Below are positions 10,463 through 55,690 of a stretch of 64,000 nt of DNA, in pieces. Source of the DNA: Acidobacteriota bacterium (GTDB taxonomy: Bacteria; Acidobacteriota; Terriglobia; Terriglobales; Acidobacteriaceae); contig JBKICT010000006.1 in assembly GCA_046566985.1 (NCBI GenBank), positions 238,353-302,352 on the forward strand, read 5' to 3'. Under the pieces are notes generated by a model that was not told the origin of the DNA, did not search any database, and was given only the letters and a program-made list of their open reading frames with translations. The position numbers were made by a program, and so were the translations under genes. The stretch's first letter is position 1, and each line of letters starts with the position of its first letter.

Positions 10463-10478
10463 TGTGATAGCGCTCACA
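10463..10478. promoter_or_regulatory. Perfect CRP/FNR-family box TGTGA-N6-TCACA upstream of the hydrogenase operon
   Basis: TGTGA-TAGCGC-TCACA (10/10). A TACCGT -10-like hexamer at 10501-10506 puts the box centre near -42 (class II geometry). A weaker copy TGTGC-TTTAGA-TCGCG is at 10422-10437. Confidence 0.75.
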
Positions 10479-35336: not shown

Positions 35337-36551
35337 ATGTCTCAGCTCTTTCCGTCCGCGTCGCTGGCCTCGATGCCAGAACCGGTACTCAGCGTTTACC
35401 TGGCCACCAATCCCCTTCGGCACCTGAACCGCAACTGCGATCACGGCTGTTCGCGCTGGTTCGATATCCACGCGAGGCAGCTACTGGCTGCGAGCGACAG
35501 CGCCGCACAGGACCCCCTTTTGCGCCAAATTAAACGCGTGCAGCACTTTCTAAAAGAGAGCATTCCGGAGGCGCCGGGCATCGCGCTCTTCGCGGGGTCG
35601 GATACCTGGCATGTGATTCCTTTGCCGAGCGAACCAGAGAACGAGATTGACTGGGGCAAGCCGAGGCTGTGGCAGTTGGTAACGATGGCTCAAAGCCACC
35701 GGCCGTGGTGCATTGCAAAGATGGACCGGTCGGGCGCGCGATTGTTCTCATTCCAGAATGGAGACCTGATACCGCTGGCCGCGTTGGAGTTCCATGTTGA
35801 CCCAAGCCACTGGAAGCAGATGCAGGCGTTCCACAGCGCCGAGAGGAATGCCGGCATGGCGCACGGTGCGCAACGCGATCTGTTCGAGCGGCGCTACGAC
35901 GCGCAACATGATCACTTCCTGTGCGATGTGGCGCAGCGGTTGAATCGTATATGCGCGAGCAGTGGTGTGAACCACGTTGTGCTGATCGGACCGAGCCGCT
36001 CCATCGGGATCCTCGAGCACAAGCTCACTCCGTTGCTGCGGAAACAGACGATCCAGATTCCGCATCTCCGGTCCGGAGGGGATTCCTCCCTATCGCTCAG
36101 CAGCGTTGTTGAGGATGCGCTGCGGCGCTTCGAAGCGGATCAGAAGGCGCAGAAGATCGGCGAACTGGGCGAGCGCGGCCGCGGCGTCGTGACCGGCGCG
36201 GAAGAGACGCTGGCGATGCTCCAGCGGGGACGGCTGAGCCTGCTGATGATCGAGGAAGACTTCAATCCGGTTCTTGGCTACTGCACCACCTGCGACCACG
36301 CGAGTGCGTCGCCTGTGCAGGAGTGCCCGCGGTGCCAGGAGCCCATGGTGGAACGCACGCTGCACGAAGTTCTGCCGCAGTTGCTGATGCGCCACCGCTG
36401 CGAGAGCGAGCTTGTGAGCGGGCAATCCGCGGAACGGCTTCACAAGATGGGCGGCATGGGAGGGTGGCTCCGCCAGAAGCACATTCTCAGAGCATCAAGG
36501 CCGTGGGCGTGGAGAGAGACGACCATACCGATGCCTGCAGCCGTTGCTTAG
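35337..36551 (+). CDS. Bacterial archaeo-eukaryotic release factor (baeRF1)-like protein with Zn ribbon, no GGQ
   Basis: AGGAGG SD. eRF1-like layout: VLSVYL N-domain with GIALFA; RNase H-like middle domain (IAKMDRSGARLF, VVLIGP); L7Ae-like C-domain (VTGAEETLAMLQRGRLSLLMI...GGMGGWLR) with a CTTC-x11-CPRC insert. Confidence 0.75.
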   Translation: MSQLFPSASLASMPEPVLSVYLATNPLRHLNRNCDHGCSRWFDIHARQLLAASDSAAQDPLLRQIKRVQHFLKESIPEAPGIALFAGSDTWHVIPLPSEPENEIDWGKPRLWQLVTMAQSHRPWCIAKMDRSGARLFSFQNGDLIPLAALEFHVDPSHWKQMQAFHSAERNAGMAHGAQRDLFERRYDAQHDHFLCDVAQRLNRICASSGVNHVVLIGPSRSIGILEHKLTPLLRKQTIQIPHLRSGGDSSLSLSSVVEDALRRFEADQKAQKIGELGERGRGVVTGAEETLAMLQRGRLSLLMIEEDFNPVLGYCTTCDHASASPVQECPRCQEPMVERTLHEVLPQLLMRHRCESELVSGQSAERLHKMGGMGGWLRQKHILRASRPWAWRETTIPMPAAVA

Positions 36552-53191: not shown

Positions 53192-54373
53192 ATGCCGGAA
53201 ACGCTTTCCGCATCCGCCGTCTCACTCGCTGAAGCTGCCGCGGCGACGCGTTCCGCGCCAACCCGCGACCTCTACATCGATCGCCTGCGAGTTGTGATGA
53301 CCGCGTTGGTGGTTCTGCACCACTGTGCCATCACCTACGGGGCGCCGGGCAGTTGGTATTACAACGAACTCCATCCCTCCGGGTCTTTATCGAGCTTCCT
53401 GCTCACCATCTTCGTTGCTACCAACCAGGCGTACTTCATGGGATTCTTCTTCCTGCTGGCCGGTTACTTCACGCCACGTTCGCTGGAGCGCAAAGGCTAT
53501 GGATGGTTCATCGGCGACCGGTTTACGCGCCTCGGCCTGCCGCTGCTTTTTTACATCGTAGTGTTGAATCCCATTACGGATTCGGTGGTTGCCGCCGCCG
53601 AGGGAAAACCCTTCTGGGCGGTTATGGCGTGGCATTGGAATCATATGGTCATCGGCACTGGCCCCATGTGGTTCGTGCAGGCACTTCTGATGTTCACATT
53701 GGCCTATTGCGCGTGGCGGGCGGTTGCAGGCCCCGCGCTCCATGCGCCGCAGATAAAGAAGCGTGTTCCATCCGGAGGCTGGTGGCTGCTGAGCGCCCTG
53801 ATCGTGGGCGCTGCAGCCCTGGCGATCCGCCAGGTCGTGCCGGCCGGCGTCAACGTCATTGGCCTGCAGCTCGGCTACTTTGCCAGCTACCTGTTTCTCT
53901 TCGCCATCGGCATCGTGGCTCGCCGGAACGACTGGCTCAATCAACTGCAGTGGCGTCATGCGCGCGCCGCACTGATTGCAGCGTTCATCGCATGGCCCGC
54001 TCTGTTTGTGGCCATTGTTCTCTCCGGCGCCATACAGGGAGCAAAAGTCAACTTCGGCGGTGGCCACACCTGGCCGGCGATTCTCTATGCGTTCTGGGAG
54101 CCGTTTGTGGCCTGGGGTTTGATTGCCGCGTGGCTGCTGCTTTTCCGCAGTTACGTCAACACCCCATCCGCATTCTGGAAATGGCTCAGCCGCCGCGCGT
54201 ATACGGTCTACATCCTTCATCCGCCGGTCCTGGTGGGTGTGGCGGTGCTGTTGCGTCCGTGGGCCGGTCCGGCATTGGTCAAGTTCGGGGTGACCGGTAC
54301 GCTGGCGTGTGCCGCAGCCTGGATGATTGCGGATCCGCTGGTGCGCATGCCGGGGCTGCGGCGCGTCGTCTGA
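53192..54373 (+). CDS. Acyltransferase family 3 (OpgC/MdoC-like membrane acyltransferase)
   Basis: YIDRLR...LVVLHH, MGFFFLLAGYF, RFTRLGLP, GPMWF, AYTVYILH; about 10 TM helices. Confidence 0.9.
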   Translation: MPETLSASAVSLAEAAAATRSAPTRDLYIDRLRVVMTALVVLHHCAITYGAPGSWYYNELHPSGSLSSFLLTIFVATNQAYFMGFFFLLAGYFTPRSLERKGYGWFIGDRFTRLGLPLLFYIVVLNPITDSVVAAAEGKPFWAVMAWHWNHMVIGTGPMWFVQALLMFTLAYCAWRAVAGPALHAPQIKKRVPSGGWWLLSALIVGAAALAIRQVVPAGVNVIGLQLGYFASYLFLFAIGIVARRNDWLNQLQWRHARAALIAAFIAWPALFVAIVLSGAIQGAKVNFGGGHTWPAILYAFWEPFVAWGLIAAWLLLFRSYVNTPSAFWKWLSRRAYTVYILHPPVLVGVAVLLRPWAGPALVKFGVTGTLACAAAWMIADPLVRMPGLRRVV

Positions 54374-54394
54374 TCGACTGCGAATCGCATGGGC

Positions 54395-54615
54395 AAAAAA
54401 TCGCCTTCGAAGGAATCGTCGCTTCGAAGGCGCTTGTATGAATCACAAGATTGCAATGAACGGGGACCAGTAGCCGGCACTGGAGGTCGGTAGCGCGCGG
54501 CTACTGGTGATCCCTGCACATAACGAGGTTAGCTGCGGCTTCCCCTTTCCACGGCTGCCTCGTGTCTCCCGGCTCAAGAGAGGTCTGATGTTTCGGCCTC
54601 TCGAACCATGTCGAC
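54395..54615 (-). ncRNA. Candidate trans-acting structured sRNA with intrinsic terminator
   Basis: Three consecutive hairpins (54571-54607, 54523-54563, 54462-54514) and an 11-bp terminator stem (54402-54432) whose U6 tract is on the minus strand. In hairpins 1 and 3, the C.A mismatches become G.U pairs only on the minus strand. Confidence 0.55.
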
Positions 54616-54648
54616 ATTCGGAGTTTCTCGTATCTTTGCGGTCCGTTC

Positions 54649-54664
54649 GGTGACGGTCGTCACA
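54649..54664. promoter_or_regulatory. CRP/FNR-family box between the candidate sRNA and purC
   Basis: GGTGA-CGGTCG-TCACA (9/10). Confidence 0.55.
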
Positions 54665-54796
54665 ACACATTGTGGAATTCTCGGCGACGGGGTTTGTGCC
54701 ACTTTGAACACAAATTGGTCGTGCCGCGCCGCATTGACGAGACCCGGTGTCGCGCCCGAAAATCGGAACTTCAGTCATCGAATGGAAGGCCCTCCT

Positions 54797-55690
54797 GTGA
54801 CCGCACTCCTCCAAACCAACCTCGGCTCCACTCCGCTGCTCGGGCGGGGTAAAGTACGCGATTTGTACGCGATCGGCGACGACCTGCTGCTGGTCGCCAC
54901 GGACCGCATCTCGGCATTCGATCATGTTCTCGGCACCGGCATTCCCGGCAAGGGCAAGATCCTGACGCAGATCTCGCTCTTCTGGTTCGAAATGATGGCC
55001 GGCATTGTGCCCAATCACCTGATCACGGCCGATGTGAAGCAGTTCCCTGCCTCGCTGCAGCCGTATGCCGATCAGCTCGAAGGCCGCTCGATGCTGGTGC
55101 GCCGCGCGAAGATGTTCCCGGTGGAGTGCGTGGCGCGCGGGTATCTTGCCGGGTCGGGCTGGAAGGAATACAAGGCCGAAGGCACCGTGTGCGGCATTGC
55201 GCTGCCGGCGGGGTTGCAGGATGGCTCGCGGCTGCCGGAGCCGATTTTTACGCCGGCCACGAAGAGCCAGGACGGCTCGCACGATGAGAACATCTCCTTT
55301 GCCCAGGTGGAGAAGATCATCGGCGCACACGAGGCCGCCGAACTGCGGCGCCTGACCATGGCCATCTACGCGCGCGCCGCCGAACACGCCGAATCGCGCG
55401 GCCTGATTCTGGCGGACACGAAGTTCGAATTCGGCGTGATCGATGGACGCATTACGCTGGCCGACGAGGTGCTGACGCCGGACTCTTCGCGCTTCTGGGA
55501 CGGCAAGCTGTGGAATCCGGGAGGCGCGCAGGCATCGTTTGACAAGCAGTTTGTGCGCGACTATCTCGAGTCGATCCACTGGAACAAGCAGGCGCCCGCG
55601 CCGAGCCTTCCGGAAGATGTTGCGCAGCGGACGCAGGCGAAGTATCTTGAAGCCTTCCGGCTTCTCACCGGCCGAACTCTCACTTTGTAA
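54797..55690 (+). CDS. purC: Phosphoribosylaminoimidazole-succinocarboxamide synthase
   Basis: RGKVRDLY, TDRISAFD, ECVARGYL.GSG, FTPATK, DTKFEFG, DEVLTPDSSRFW, FDKQFVRD. GTG start with GGAAGG SD. Confidence 0.97.
   Translation: MTALLQTNLGSTPLLGRGKVRDLYAIGDDLLLVATDRISAFDHVLGTGIPGKGKILTQISLFWFEMMAGIVPNHLITADVKQFPASLQPYADQLEGRSMLVRRAKMFPVECVARGYLAGSGWKEYKAEGTVCGIALPAGLQDGSRLPEPIFTPATKSQDGSHDENISFAQVEKIIGAHEAAELRRLTMAIYARAAEHAESRGLILADTKFEFGVIDGRITLADEVLTPDSSRFWDGKLWNPGGAQASFDKQFVRDYLESIHWNKQAPAPSLPEDVAQRTQAKYLEAFRLLTGRTLTL

What the first reader, a model, noticed from the sequence alone, without database searches (positions are those of the whole stretch)
54395..54664. Candidate CRP-type-activated sRNA with an exposed anti-Shine-Dalgarno loop, divergent from purC
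Seen: the gap between the acyltransferase and purC holds a terminator with an 11-bp perfect stem whose U6 tract lies on the minus strand, where no gene ends. Upstream on that strand are three stacked hairpins. The last has a 10-bp perfect stem (CCAGTAGCCG/CGGCTACTGG) and the loop UACCGACCUCCA, containing the anti-SD ACCUCC. G.U asymmetry in two hairpins favours the minus strand. A GGTGA-N6-TCACA box is centred about 41 nt upstream of the inferred 5' end (~54615), with a GAAACT -10-like hexamer at 54627-54622. Established: class II CRP promoters have the site near -41.5, and enterobacterial CyaR is a CRP-activated sRNA that uses a C-rich anti-SD loop. Inference: this is an analogous, possibly undescribed acidobacterial riboregulator. 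The middle hairpin ends in CAGCUAACCUCGU, which resembles the 3' end of c-di-AMP (ydaO) riboswitches, but their other elements are missing.
Basis: partly seen in the sequence, partly recalled or inferred. Interest (0 to 1): 0.72.

Follow-up and report, generated by a model that had tools for sequence, protein, structure and literature searches.

The report
Conserved Terracidiphilus small RNA beside purC
A ~220-nt non-coding RNA gene is conserved in peat and soil Acidobacteria (Terracidiphilus and close relatives), is absent from Rfam, sits behind a CRP/FNR-type activator site, and occurs as short high-depth contigs in peat and soil metatranscriptomes; its two invariant loops resemble the two partners of the ribosome-mRNA docking step, which points to control of translation initiation.

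Summary

**What it is.** Window 54615->54395 (minus strand) encodes a ~221-nt sRNA with five hairpins, the last an intrinsic terminator.
- **Conservation:** a covariance model finds it in 137/150 genomes of the genus (record titles: Terracidiphilus) and in four neighbouring genera of Acidobacteriaceae. It found none in 140 genomes of other acidobacterial families.
- **Structure and strand:** among 17 divergent copies, 44/60 pairs show two-sided compensatory changes. G-U pairs outnumber A-C 212:15, which fixes the strand.
- **Not coding, not known:** the 38-aa ORF is not conserved, and Rfam 15 has no match.
- **Expression:** peat and soil metatranscriptomes hold short contigs of relatives' copies at depths up to ~2200.

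**Promoter.** A TGTGA-N6-TCAC box sits at -41.5 from the inferred start, with a GAnACT -10.
- It is present in 74/74 further species and travels with paralogous copies that are not beside purC.
- Genome-wide the box is 3-fold enriched outside genes and sits at the class II position at about 55 of 88 intergenic sites.
- Those sites front hydrogenase, cytochrome and central-carbon genes and an FNR-like regulator gene.
- In regulatory logic the nearest analogue is therefore FnrS rather than CyaR.

**Open.** No target was identified. First readers flagged the same purC-linked element in three other genomes of this scan.

The parts
54649..54664 (-). CRP/FNR-type box. On the RNA strand it reads TGTGACGACCGTCACC. 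Its centre, 54656.5, lies at -41.5 from the inferred start.
   Evidence: The box is present with <=1 mismatch to TGTGA-N6-TCACA in 74/74 further species at fixed spacing. It is kept by paralogous copies away from purC. The motif is enriched outside genes genome-wide, 56-65% against 14-34% for 12 control palindromes.
54622..54627 (-). Weak -10 hexamer GAAACT (family consensus GA[C/A]ACT), with no separate -35 element.
   Evidence: The hexamer is conserved at offset 37 from the first base of the box in all aligned promoters. The same offset carries an nAnnnT hexamer at 51-55 of 88 intergenic boxes in this genome, against 14-25 at other offsets.
54395..54615 (-). The sRNA itself, ~221 nt. The start at G 54615 is inferred from the -10. 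The end is inferred at the U6 tract.
   Evidence: The covariance-model hit covers G000:C6:292746-292971(-), which is window 54394-54619. Conservation stops at both ends. Metatranscriptome contigs of relatives cover 54460-54583.
54563..54615 (-). 5' domain. GUC(54615-54613)/GAC closes hairpin H1 (arms 54597-54607 and 54571-54583). The H1 loop is variable.
   Evidence: RNAalifold predicts the helix. Among divergent copies 11 of its 13 pairs change on both sides.
54523..54563 (-). Hairpin H2. Its invariant 10-nt loop AAAGGGGAAG (54539-54548) is SD-like.
   Evidence: Loop core GGGGAAG is invariant in all but one degenerate, box-less copy, while the stem covaries, 7 of 14 pairs two-sided. GGAAAGGGG can form 9 pairs, 2 of them G-U, with the 16S tail CCUCCUUUCU read from two congeners.
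54462..54514 (-). Hairpin H3. Its invariant loop UACCGACCUCCA (54481-54492) is anti-SD-like and shares ACCUCC with the 16S 3' tail.
   Evidence: Loop core GACCUCC is kept in 15 of 17 divergent copies (CCUCC in all). 11 of 16 stem pairs change on both sides.
54433..54449 (-). Small hairpin H4 (CUUGU/ACAAG). Its loop and length are variable, and it is absent from the short ~170-nt paralogues.
   Evidence: Alignments. It is not part of the covariance model.
54395..54432 (-). Intrinsic terminator: an 11-bp stem (54422-54432/54402-54412), then A, then U6 (54400-54395).
   Evidence: All 11 pairs change on both sides among divergent copies. A U-G wobble occurs in 19/30 sequences, which would be C-A on the other strand. 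The A-run 5' of the hairpin on the + strand is conserved.

Best explanation
This is the gene of a stand-alone, trans-acting regulatory RNA of ~221 nt, restricted to Terracidiphilus and a few neighbouring genera of Acidobacteriaceae.

What is shown:
- a conserved five-hairpin structure on the minus strand, ending in an intrinsic terminator;
- no conserved ORF;
- no Rfam family;
- RNA of close relatives present as short, high-depth contigs in peat and soil metatranscriptomes;
- a promoter made of a TGTGA-N6-TCAC box centred 29.5 nt upstream of a weak GAnACT -10, which belongs to the RNA gene itself;
- the same box at the same class II position in front of dozens of respiratory, hydrogenase, cytochrome-biogenesis and central-carbon genes in this genome, and in front of one FNR-like regulator gene.

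What is inferred:
- A CRP/FNR-family activator switches the RNA on together with that regulon when oxygen or respiratory energy is limiting. The most likely activator is one of the Cys-cluster, RETVTR-helix paralogues.
- The RNA then acts through its two invariant apical loops.
- The C-rich loop (GACCUCC, identical to the core of the 16S anti-SD) pairs with GGAGG(UC) Shine-Dalgarno regions of target mRNAs and blocks initiation, as FnrS, CyaR and RoxS/RsaE do.
- The G-rich loop (AAAGGGG) is a second seed for C/U-rich sites.
- Hfq is encoded in the genome, and the U-tailed terminator fits Hfq use.
For: Structure and strand:
- 98.3% of cells are paired in 30 congeneric sequences, against 33-48% when partners are slid.
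- 44/60 pairs show two-sided changes in 17 divergent copies, with 0/500 shuffles as high.
- G-U to A-C counts are 212:15 and 101:24.

Distribution:
- 137/150 genomes of the genus, 82/87 of the high-quality ones.
- Genera g11, g42, g48 and g88 also carry it.
- 0/28 in the sister family and 0/140 in other families of the phylum.
- The record titles name Terracidiphilus or Acidobacteriaceae MAGs.

Not coding: the ATG is missing in 8/30 and 9/17 copies, and ORF lengths range from 6 to 69 codons.

Expression:
- Contigs of 73-184 nt at depths of 2239, 403 and 318 in three RNA runs from two studies, 90-95% identical.
- Illumina adapters lie on both sides in one orientation, with read 1 on the + strand. 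That means a minus-strand RNA if the libraries are dUTP-stranded.

Promoter:
- 74/74 species carry the box at fixed spacing.
- Paralogues away from purC keep it.

Regulon:
- Box enrichment outside genes has p ~1e-22 to 1e-31.
- A peak at the class II offset.
- Target genes.
- A box at the class II position in front of the FNR-like gene at C7:42870-43703.

Other: Hfq is present and CsrA is absent.
Against: - There is no RNA data from this organism itself. The 5' and 3' ends are inferred, not mapped.
- The strand call from adapters depends on an unrecorded library protocol.
- No target was found. Duplex energies of both loops against 7344 candidate initiation regions are no better than those of shuffled seeds.
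- The one enriched complementary word, GGCUUCCCC (12 sense, 0 antisense in 5' regions), failed a conservation test at fusA.
- The regulator is unassigned. Five CRP/FNR paralogues exist and none reaches an NCBIfam equivalog cut-off.
- Persistent linkage to purC across five genera is not explained by this model.
Confidence: 0.55

Rival explanations
1. The RNA works as a decoy or ligand for the ribosome or a protein rather than as an mRNA-specific antisense regulator. Its SD-like loop would dock on the 16S anti-SD tail of 30S subunits, or the RNA would sequester an RNA-binding protein, damping translation globally under energy limitation.
For: - The H2 loop can form 9 pairs with the 16S tail read from congeners.
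- Both loops are invariant over five genera while all stems drift.
- Contig depth in metatranscriptomes is very high.
- No specific target emerged.
- A baeRF1-family (Balon-like) gene in the same window has a box upstream.
Against: - Nothing was tested directly.
- Contig depth cannot be ranked against other RNAs.
- CsrA, the classic sequestered protein, is absent.
- The fold is not 6S-like.
- Invariant loops are equally expected for multi-target seed regions.
Confidence: 0.15
2. The regulatory input is a cAMP-CRP-type carbon or starvation signal, not an oxygen or redox signal sensed by an FNR-like protein.
For: - The box matches the CRP consensus.
- PEPCK, malic enzyme, phosphoketolase, GAPDH and glycoside-hydrolase-type genes are in the regulon.
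- Mycobacterial cAMP-Crp uses the same box to induce cydAB under respiratory inhibition (PMC7739888).
Against: - All four RE-x3-R-helix paralogues lack the Arg-Ser/Thr of the cAMP phosphate-binding cassette, and two carry C-x2-C-x8-C N-terminal clusters. This is read and judged against E. coli CRP and FNR from general knowledge.
- Fnr of Bacillus and Paenibacillus also binds TGTGA-N6-TCACA (10.1101/2020.01.03.894683).
- Hydrogenase, HypA, CcmF, multihaem cytochromes, ferredoxins and NuoA dominate the regulon.
Confidence: 0.25
3. The element is chiefly a cis-acting device for purC: a shared divergent operator, transcriptional interference, or an antisense to read-through transcripts entering purC.
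For: It lies divergent from purC in all five genera where the primary copy was examined, while the gene on the other side varies.
Against: - Paralogous copies with an intact box, -10 and loops lie away from purC (L072, L073, L074, L075, L078).
- The distance from the box to the purC start varies by roughly 90 nt between species.
- The sequence between the box and purC is not conserved.
- The RNA has its own terminator and conserved loops, which an operator would not need.
Confidence: 0.07
4. It encodes a small protein (the 38-aa ORF or another), or it is a + strand leader or riboswitch of purC.
For: An ORF of 38 codons runs through it in this genome. The + strand also folds well, z = -5.2.
Against: - The start codon is absent in many copies, and ORF lengths range from 6 to 69 codons with frame-breaking indels.
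- 212 G-U pairs would become A-C mismatches on the + strand.
- The U-tract is on the minus strand only.
- No purine, ZTP or other riboswitch hit appears in Rfam.
Confidence: 0.03

Closest known systems
FnrS (enterobacterial FNR-activated sRNA, Rfam RF01796)
   Same: Both are stand-alone sRNAs with an intrinsic terminator, switched on by a CRP/FNR-family activator together with the anaerobic or respiratory regulon. FnrS represses mRNAs by pairing at their initiation regions (PMC10993149).
   Different: There is no sequence or structure homology (no Rfam hit). This RNA is about twice as long, has five hairpins and two invariant apical loops, and its box is TGTGA-type rather than TTGAT-type. Its targets and its oxygen dependence are untested.
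CyaR (enterobacterial CRP-cAMP-activated sRNA, RF00112)
   Same: Both have a TGTGA-N6-TCACA box at a class II position and a C-rich, anti-SD-like loop used as seed. The CyaR features are from general knowledge.
   Different: There is no homology. The candidate regulators here lack the cAMP-binding Arg, and the regulon is respiratory rather than catabolite-type.
RoxS/RsaE (Firmicutes, RF01820)
   Same: Both are redox- or respiration-linked sRNAs whose conserved C-rich motifs in unpaired regions pair with Shine-Dalgarno sequences of central-metabolism mRNAs. The RoxS/RsaE features are from general knowledge.
   Different: The phylum, fold and promoter logic differ (ResD/Rex against a CRP/FNR box). 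RoxS/RsaE has several C-rich motifs, whereas this RNA has one C-rich and one G-rich loop.
6S RNA / Ms1 (abundant RNA-polymerase-binding RNAs)
   Same: All reach high apparent abundance in total-RNA data. No 6S was detected in this genome by Rfam.
   Different: The covariation-supported fold is a row of independent hairpins plus a terminator, not a rod with a central bubble. The 5' and 3' ends do not pair.

Membership tests
Any Rfam 15 family (incl. CyaR, FnrS, RsaE, 6S, ydaO, Acido-1, Acido-Lenti-1) | Match to the family covariance model at or near its gathering score | tested here: not met
   The only gathering-level hit in the window is a tRNA elsewhere. At E<=10 on 54300-54850 there are only three chance-level hits, none overlapping the conserved core in a meaningful way.
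Trans-acting bacterial sRNA gene (generic kind) | Own promoter and own intrinsic terminator, in an intergenic region, with no conserved ORF | tested here: met
   A conserved box and -10, a covarying terminator with a U-tract, and no conserved ORF.
Trans-acting bacterial sRNA gene (generic kind) | Detected as a discrete transcript | tested here: inconclusive
   Short, high-depth contigs of relatives' copies occur in three metatranscriptomes from two studies, with adapter junctions in one orientation. Contigs cannot prove ends, strand or level, and none is from this organism.
Trans-acting bacterial sRNA gene (generic kind) | Base-pairing with identified mRNA targets through a conserved seed | tested here: inconclusive
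   The seeds are conserved, but the target scan is no better than shuffled controls, and the fusA candidate is not conserved.
Class II CRP/FNR-dependent promoter | Palindromic TGTGA-N6-TCACA-type site centred near -41.5, overlapping the -35, with a recognisable -10 | tested here: met
   The centre lies 29.5 nt upstream of the first base of the -10 in the window and in 74/74 other species. The genome-wide peak of nAnnnT falls at the same offset. The transcription start itself is inferred.
Class II CRP/FNR-dependent promoter | Activation by a CRP/FNR-family protein bound to the site | not testable with these tools
   Five family members are encoded, four of them with an R-E-x3-R recognition helix. 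One has a box at the class II position in front of its own gene. No binding or genetic data exist.
CsrB/RsmZ-type protein sponge | Presence of CsrA/RsmA and multiple GGA hairpin loops | tested here: not met
   There is no CsrA domain in a 98%-complete genome, and only one loop contains GGA.
6S RNA | Long closing stem of the 5' and 3' ends with a central bubble | tested here: not met
   The consensus fold is five independent hairpins, and the RF00013 search of the genome finds nothing.

The most novel reading that the evidence does not exclude
The RNA is a ribosome-directed riboregulator. Its SD-mimic loop (AAAGGGG) occupies the anti-SD tail of 30S subunits, while its anti-SD-mimic loop (ACCUCC) occupies the SD of mRNAs. 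One abundant RNA, induced with the low-oxygen/energy regulon and alongside a Balon-like baeRF1 factor, would then throttle or re-programme translation initiation globally. That would be an RNA counterpart of hibernation factors.
Probability: 0.1. Interest if true: 0.85.

Novelty: new member of a known kind. Interest (0 to 1): 0.6.

Why it matters
Four full-text searches for Acidobacteria/Terracidiphilus sRNAs found none described, although the phylum is among the most abundant in soil. This element comes with unusually complete computational support:
- covariation in every helix;
- a defined promoter architecture;
- a lineage-wide distribution;
- presence in environmental RNA.

It also exposes, as a by-product, a global CRP/FNR-type regulon of roughly 80-90 intergenic sites. 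These are mostly class II and cover hydrogenase, cytochromes, NADH dehydrogenase and central carbon metabolism in Terracidiphilus, an abundant peatland lineage.

The work gives a covariance model that could be submitted as a new RNA family, and a concrete handle (box, regulator candidates, two seed loops) for studying how these bacteria adjust to anoxic, energy-poor peat.

Tried and rejected
- **Known RNA family:** rejected. This includes the ydaO resemblance and Acido-1/Acido-Lenti-1.
- **Conserved small ORF:** rejected.
- **+ strand element or purC leader:** rejected on G-U asymmetry and the side of the U-tract. A TTGACA on the + strand has no usable -10 at 16-19 nt; this was checked by eye.
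- **6S RNA:** no Rfam 6S hit in the genome, but the fold is not 6S-like.
- **CsrA sponge:** no CsrA.
- **Single-genome target prediction:** RNAduplex of four conserved single-stranded segments against 7344 candidate initiation regions gave nothing above shuffled seeds. A mismatch scan for the complement of the H3 loop found only scattered hits.
- **Word enrichment:** GGCUUCCCC, the complement of the H2 loop core, occurs 12 times in sense and 0 in antisense in 5' regions, one of them being the sRNA locus itself.
  - The genes behind these sites share no theme.
  - At fusA the word is just one variant of a variable hairpin loop in relatives.
  - It is therefore not accepted as a target motif.
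- **Kissing interaction between the two loops:** at most 4 pairs, and untestable because both loops are invariant.
- **Assigning the regulator by family models:** no paralogue reaches an equivalog cut-off.
- **16S 3' tail:** the rRNA operon is not in this assembly, so the tail was read from two congeners instead.
- **Literature:** four full-text searches found no description of this RNA.
Full report
**1. The observation**

Read on the minus strand, it holds the following.
- A box TGTGACGACCGTCACC at 54664-54649.
- GAAACT at 54627-54622.
- A 5' segment GUCGACAUGG starting at 54615.
- Hairpin H1 (54607-54571).
- Hairpin H2 (54563-54523), loop AAAGGGGAAG.
- Hairpin H3 (54514-54462), loop UACCGACCUCCA.
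- A small hairpin H4 (54449-54433).
- An 11-bp terminator hairpin (54432-54402) followed by A and U6 (54400-54395).

The terminator scan missed the hairpin only because its loop has 9 nt. The minus-strand fold has z = -4.2 against dinucleotide shuffles. The + strand folds as well, z = -5.2, so folding energy alone does not give the strand.

**2. Conservation, structure and strand**

- BLASTN of the gap against 60 relatives hit 31/36 genomes of the same genus. Identity was 75-87% over exactly query positions ~18-291, which is window 54391-54664. Both flanks were unalignable.
- RNAalifold on 30 sequences gave 60 pairs in H1, H2, H3 and the terminator. 98.3% of cells are paired, against 33-48% when the 3' partners are slid by 1-3 columns. 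12 pairs change on both sides, and 0/500 shuffles reach the observed values.
- A covariance model (R1) then recovered more divergent orthologues and paralogues. In 17 of these, 44 of 60 pairs show two-sided changes and 93% of cells are paired, against 33-46% slid. That alignment is fitted to the model, so it leans toward the structure.
- At paired positions there are 212 G-U against 15 A-C in the first set, and 101 against 24 in the second. On the + strand these would be reversed.
- The conserved A-run lies 5' of the terminator hairpin on the + strand, which gives a U-tail on the minus strand. Together these fix the RNA strand as minus.
The first ATG is specific to this genome, and the second is missing in 8/30 and 9/17 sequences. 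Reading frames run 6-69 codons.

**3. Distribution**

- R1 finds the RNA in 137/150 genomes of the genus, 82/87 of the high-quality ones.
- It also finds it in four further genera of the same family: g11, g42 and g48, and g88.
- It was not found in 28 genomes of the sister family, nor in 140 genomes of the other families of the phylum that were sampled. These searches used strict filters, so weak homologues could be missed.
- An exact pattern joining the two loop motifs was scanned over one genome per prokaryotic species. All listed titles are MAGs named Terracidiphilus, Acidobacteriaceae, Terriglobales or Acidobacteriota, many from peat (SPRUCE, Stordalen bog/fen/palsa, Microflora Danica).
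- The genus is therefore Terracidiphilus and the family Acidobacteriaceae.
- This genome has one copy. Some genomes have a second or third.

**4. What is invariant**

Across all five genera, and in nearly all paralogues, the stems drift and covary while three things stay fixed.
- The 5' UGUC, which closes H1 against GAC.
- The H2 loop core GGGGAAG, usually GGAAAGGGGAAGCC (lost only in one degenerate, box-less copy).
- The H3 loop core GACCUCC (15 of 17 divergent copies; CCUCC in all), usually CUACCGACCUCCAG.

The H1 loop, H4 and the spacers vary, and short paralogues of ~170 nt lack H4.

The 16S 3' tail in two congeners reads GGAUCACCUCCUUUCUA. The H3 loop therefore shares ACCUCC with the anti-SD. 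The H2 loop region GGAAAGGGG can form nine pairs, two of them G-U, with CCUCCUUUC. This is direct reading of the sequences.

**5. Expression**

The runs found for this stretch hold only its conserved part. Laying four of them gave the following.
- Contigs of 73-184 nt cover 54460-54583 at 90-95% identity, so they come from relatives.
- Depths were 2239 and 78 in one peat metatranscriptome, 403 and 125 in a second, and up to 318 (47 contigs) in a soil metatranscriptome.
- The loose ends run on into relatives' H4/terminator and H1 sequences, not into flanking genes.
- In the two peat runs the contigs carry Illumina adapters on both sides, always in the same orientation. The read-1 primer end lies before 54460 on the + strand, and AGATCGGAAGAGC lies behind 54577/54583.
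- Read 1 therefore reads the + strand. In dUTP-stranded libraries that means a minus-strand RNA.

This shows that copies of the family exist as short, abundant RNA-derived fragments in nature. It does not map ends, and the strand inference depends on a library protocol that I could not check.

**6. The promoter belongs to the RNA**

- In 74 of 74 further species the RNA is preceded by a box with at most one mismatch to TGTGA-N6-TCACA, typically CTGTGAyrrCCGTCACGG.
- GAGA(C/A)ACT follows at a fixed distance. The hexamer GA(C/A)ACT begins 37 nt after the first T of the box, so the box centre lies 29.5 nt upstream of the -10. With the -10 at -12 to -7 this is the class II position, -41.5.
- The inferred start is the G of GUCAAC, 54615 in the window.
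- There is no separate -35, and the -10 is weak. It matches TATAAT only at positions 2, 4 and 6, as expected for an activator-dependent promoter.
- The primary copy is divergent from purC in every genus examined, while the gene on the other side varies.
- Paralogous copies that are not next to purC (L072, L073, L074, L075, L078) keep the box (degenerate in L072) and an -10-like hexamer.
- The distance from the box to purC varies by roughly 90 nt. The box therefore serves the RNA gene.

**7. The box is a global regulatory motif in this genome**

I used a crude GC3-based gene call of my own (81% of the genome called).
- 79 of 140 matches to TGTGACNNNNGTCACA (at most 2 mismatches) lie outside genes.
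- 88 of 136 matches to TGTGA-N6-TCACA (at most 1 mismatch) lie outside genes.
- Only 19% of the genome is outside called genes, giving p ~1e-22 and ~4e-31. Twelve control palindromes of the same composition give 14-34%.
- Of the 88 intergenic sites, 51-55 have an nAnnnT hexamer at offset 37+-1, against 14-25 at eleven other offsets. Class II is therefore the prevailing architecture.

Oriented by that hexamer, the downstream genes include the following.
- Respiration, hydrogenase and cytochrome biogenesis:
  - the [NiFe]-hydrogenase small subunit (window 10489) and HypA;
  - CcmF and another cytochrome c assembly protein;
  - a multihaem cytochrome c;
  - a 4Fe-4S ferredoxin, a CoxS-type 2Fe-2S subunit and an HdrD-like CCG protein;
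  - NuoA, a NIR_SIR reductase and TauE.
- Central carbon metabolism: GAPDH, malic enzyme, PEPCK and phosphoketolase.
- Other: a PAS-GAF-HD protein and two glycosyltransferases.

Cytochrome bd subunit I lies next to a box, but the class II hexamer there points to the divergent flavin amine-oxidase-family gene.

One class II box fronts a CRP/FNR-family gene, C7:42870-43703. A second box in the same spacer fronts the multihaem cytochrome.

**8. Candidate regulators**

- The genome encodes five HTH_Crp_2 proteins.
- Four have an R-E-x3-R recognition helix like CRP (RETVTR x3, RELISR). None has the Arg-Ser/Thr of the cAMP phosphate-binding cassette.
- Two have N-terminal C-x2-C-x8-C clusters plus a central Cys, reminiscent of the Fe-S ligands of FNR: C20:43954-44820 and the possibly auto-regulated C7 protein. 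I read this and compared it with E. coli CRP and FNR from general knowledge.
- None reaches an NCBIfam equivalog cut-off. The best label for the C20 protein is the Fnr subfamily, at 63 bits against a cut-off of 228.
- The closest solved relatives are mycobacterial and corynebacterial CRP/GlxR-type proteins and Aliivibrio FNR.
- Published precedents exist for both readings. Fnr of Bacillus and Paenibacillus binds TGTGA-N6-TCACA (10.1101/2020.01.03.894683). M. smegmatis cAMP-Crp uses the same box at cydAB under respiratory inhibition (PMC7739888).

I rate an O2/redox-type (FNR-like) input as more likely than cAMP, but this is inference.

**9. Mechanism**

- Hfq is encoded, as one strong and two weaker Hfq-domain ORFs. 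CsrA is not.
- The anatomy is that of a multi-target base-pairing sRNA: a terminator with a U-tail and two invariant apical loops on covarying stems.
- The best-supported model is that the CCUCC loop masks Shine-Dalgarno sequences, with the G-rich loop as a second seed.
- I could not identify targets.
  - Duplex energies against 7344 candidate initiation regions do not exceed shuffled seeds.
  - The one suggestive word, GGCUUCCCC (12 sense, 0 antisense in 5' regions), did not survive. The genes behind it share no theme. At fusA it is a non-conserved variant of a hairpin loop.
- A comparative (CopraRNA-type) search needs several whole genomes, which the tools do not provide.
- The alternative that the SD-like loop addresses the ribosome itself remains open.

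**10. Comparison and novelty**

- Rfam 15 has no family for it. Four full-text literature searches found no description.
- In regulatory logic it works like FnrS, an FNR-family-activated sRNA that reprogrammes metabolism by pairing at initiation regions (PMC10993149).
- In seed chemistry it works like CyaR or RoxS/RsaE. It is a member of none of these.
- I class it as a new member of a known kind: a new sRNA family.
- First readers of this scan independently flagged the same purC-linked structured region in three other genomes. Those notes were unchecked, and the family-level analysis here covers them.

**11. Confidence**

| Claim | Probability |
|---|---|
| Real, structured, minus-strand RNA gene | ~0.95 |
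| Activator-dependent class II promoter of a CRP/FNR-family regulon | ~0.8 |
| O2/redox rather than cAMP input | ~0.55 |
| Acts by base pairing through the loops, chiefly SD masking | ~0.5 |
| Ribosome or protein decoy | ~0.15 |

Noticed in passing
G000 contigs: C8:88055, C8:474081, C8:612733, C8:777652, C10:24374, C11:208196, C14:179171, C23:14440, C24:49482, C2:135568 (outside the window): A second, multi-copy (10 or more) element of ~190 nt carries the same box at the class II position. It reads CACAyCC..TGTGAyCsCCGsCACA..(C/G)A(C/T)AAT, then conserved blocks TGTAGGAmCCATGGGAAAG, AAATGTTAACCAGAAAAATAATA and the hairpin TACCCATAGGGGGTATGGGTA. Sequence diverges after about 200 nt, and mostly no gene is called directly downstream. 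It has no Rfam match. It could be a second box-dependent sRNA or leader family, or the end of a mobile element.
   Followed up: partly
whole genome G000; in the window, boxes near 10463 (hydrogenase small subunit), 35102 (baeRF1-family gene 35337-36551), 45296 (GTP cyclohydrolase II) and 48679 (GAPDH): There is a global TGTGA-N6-TCACA regulon of roughly 80-90 intergenic sites, mostly class II. It covers hydrogenase, cytochrome c biogenesis, NuoA, Fe-S proteins and central carbon enzymes.
   Followed up: partly
G000 C7:42870-43703(-) and C20:43954-44820(-): Two CRP/FNR paralogues carry N-terminal C-x2-C-x8-C clusters and a CRP-like RETVTR helix. The C7 gene has a class II box in front of itself and shares its spacer with a box-driven multihaem cytochrome c gene.
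   Followed up: partly
L216-L235 (rpsG-fusA spacer in the genus); G000 C12:189950-190014: The fusA leader has a conserved hairpin ACCGCGGGC-loop-GCCCGC abutting the AAGGA Shine-Dalgarno, with a freely varying loop. Upstream of it, many species carry short tandem repeats (GCTAGnnGCTAG..., CACTGATCACTGA...).
   Followed up: no
L077 (G314:C90) 505-723 and 1186-1384: There are two copies of the sRNA 460 nt apart. The second has no box, degenerate H1 and H2, and a 3' half nearly identical to the first. It is either a decaying tandem duplicate or an assembly artefact.
   Followed up: no
window 54460-54583 as seen in runs X2 and X3: High-depth metatranscriptome contigs carry adapters at both ends at fixed positions (the H1 3' arm and the H4 5' arm). 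This suggests a dominant ~120-130-nt fragment, either a processed form or preferential cleavage in loops.
   Followed up: no
L248 224-269 (-) = G000 C11:~208403-208448: There is a near-threshold match to Acido-Lenti-1 RNA (RF01687), 32.5 bits against a gathering score of 37, E = 5e-5. It lies downstream of one copy of the multi-copy element, on the opposite strand.
   Followed up: no
G000 whole assembly: No 16S rRNA 3' end is in the assembly and there is no Rfam 6S hit. There are three Hfq-domain ORFs, one of them (C20:40635-40796) about 3 kb from the FNR-like gene on C20.
   Followed up: no
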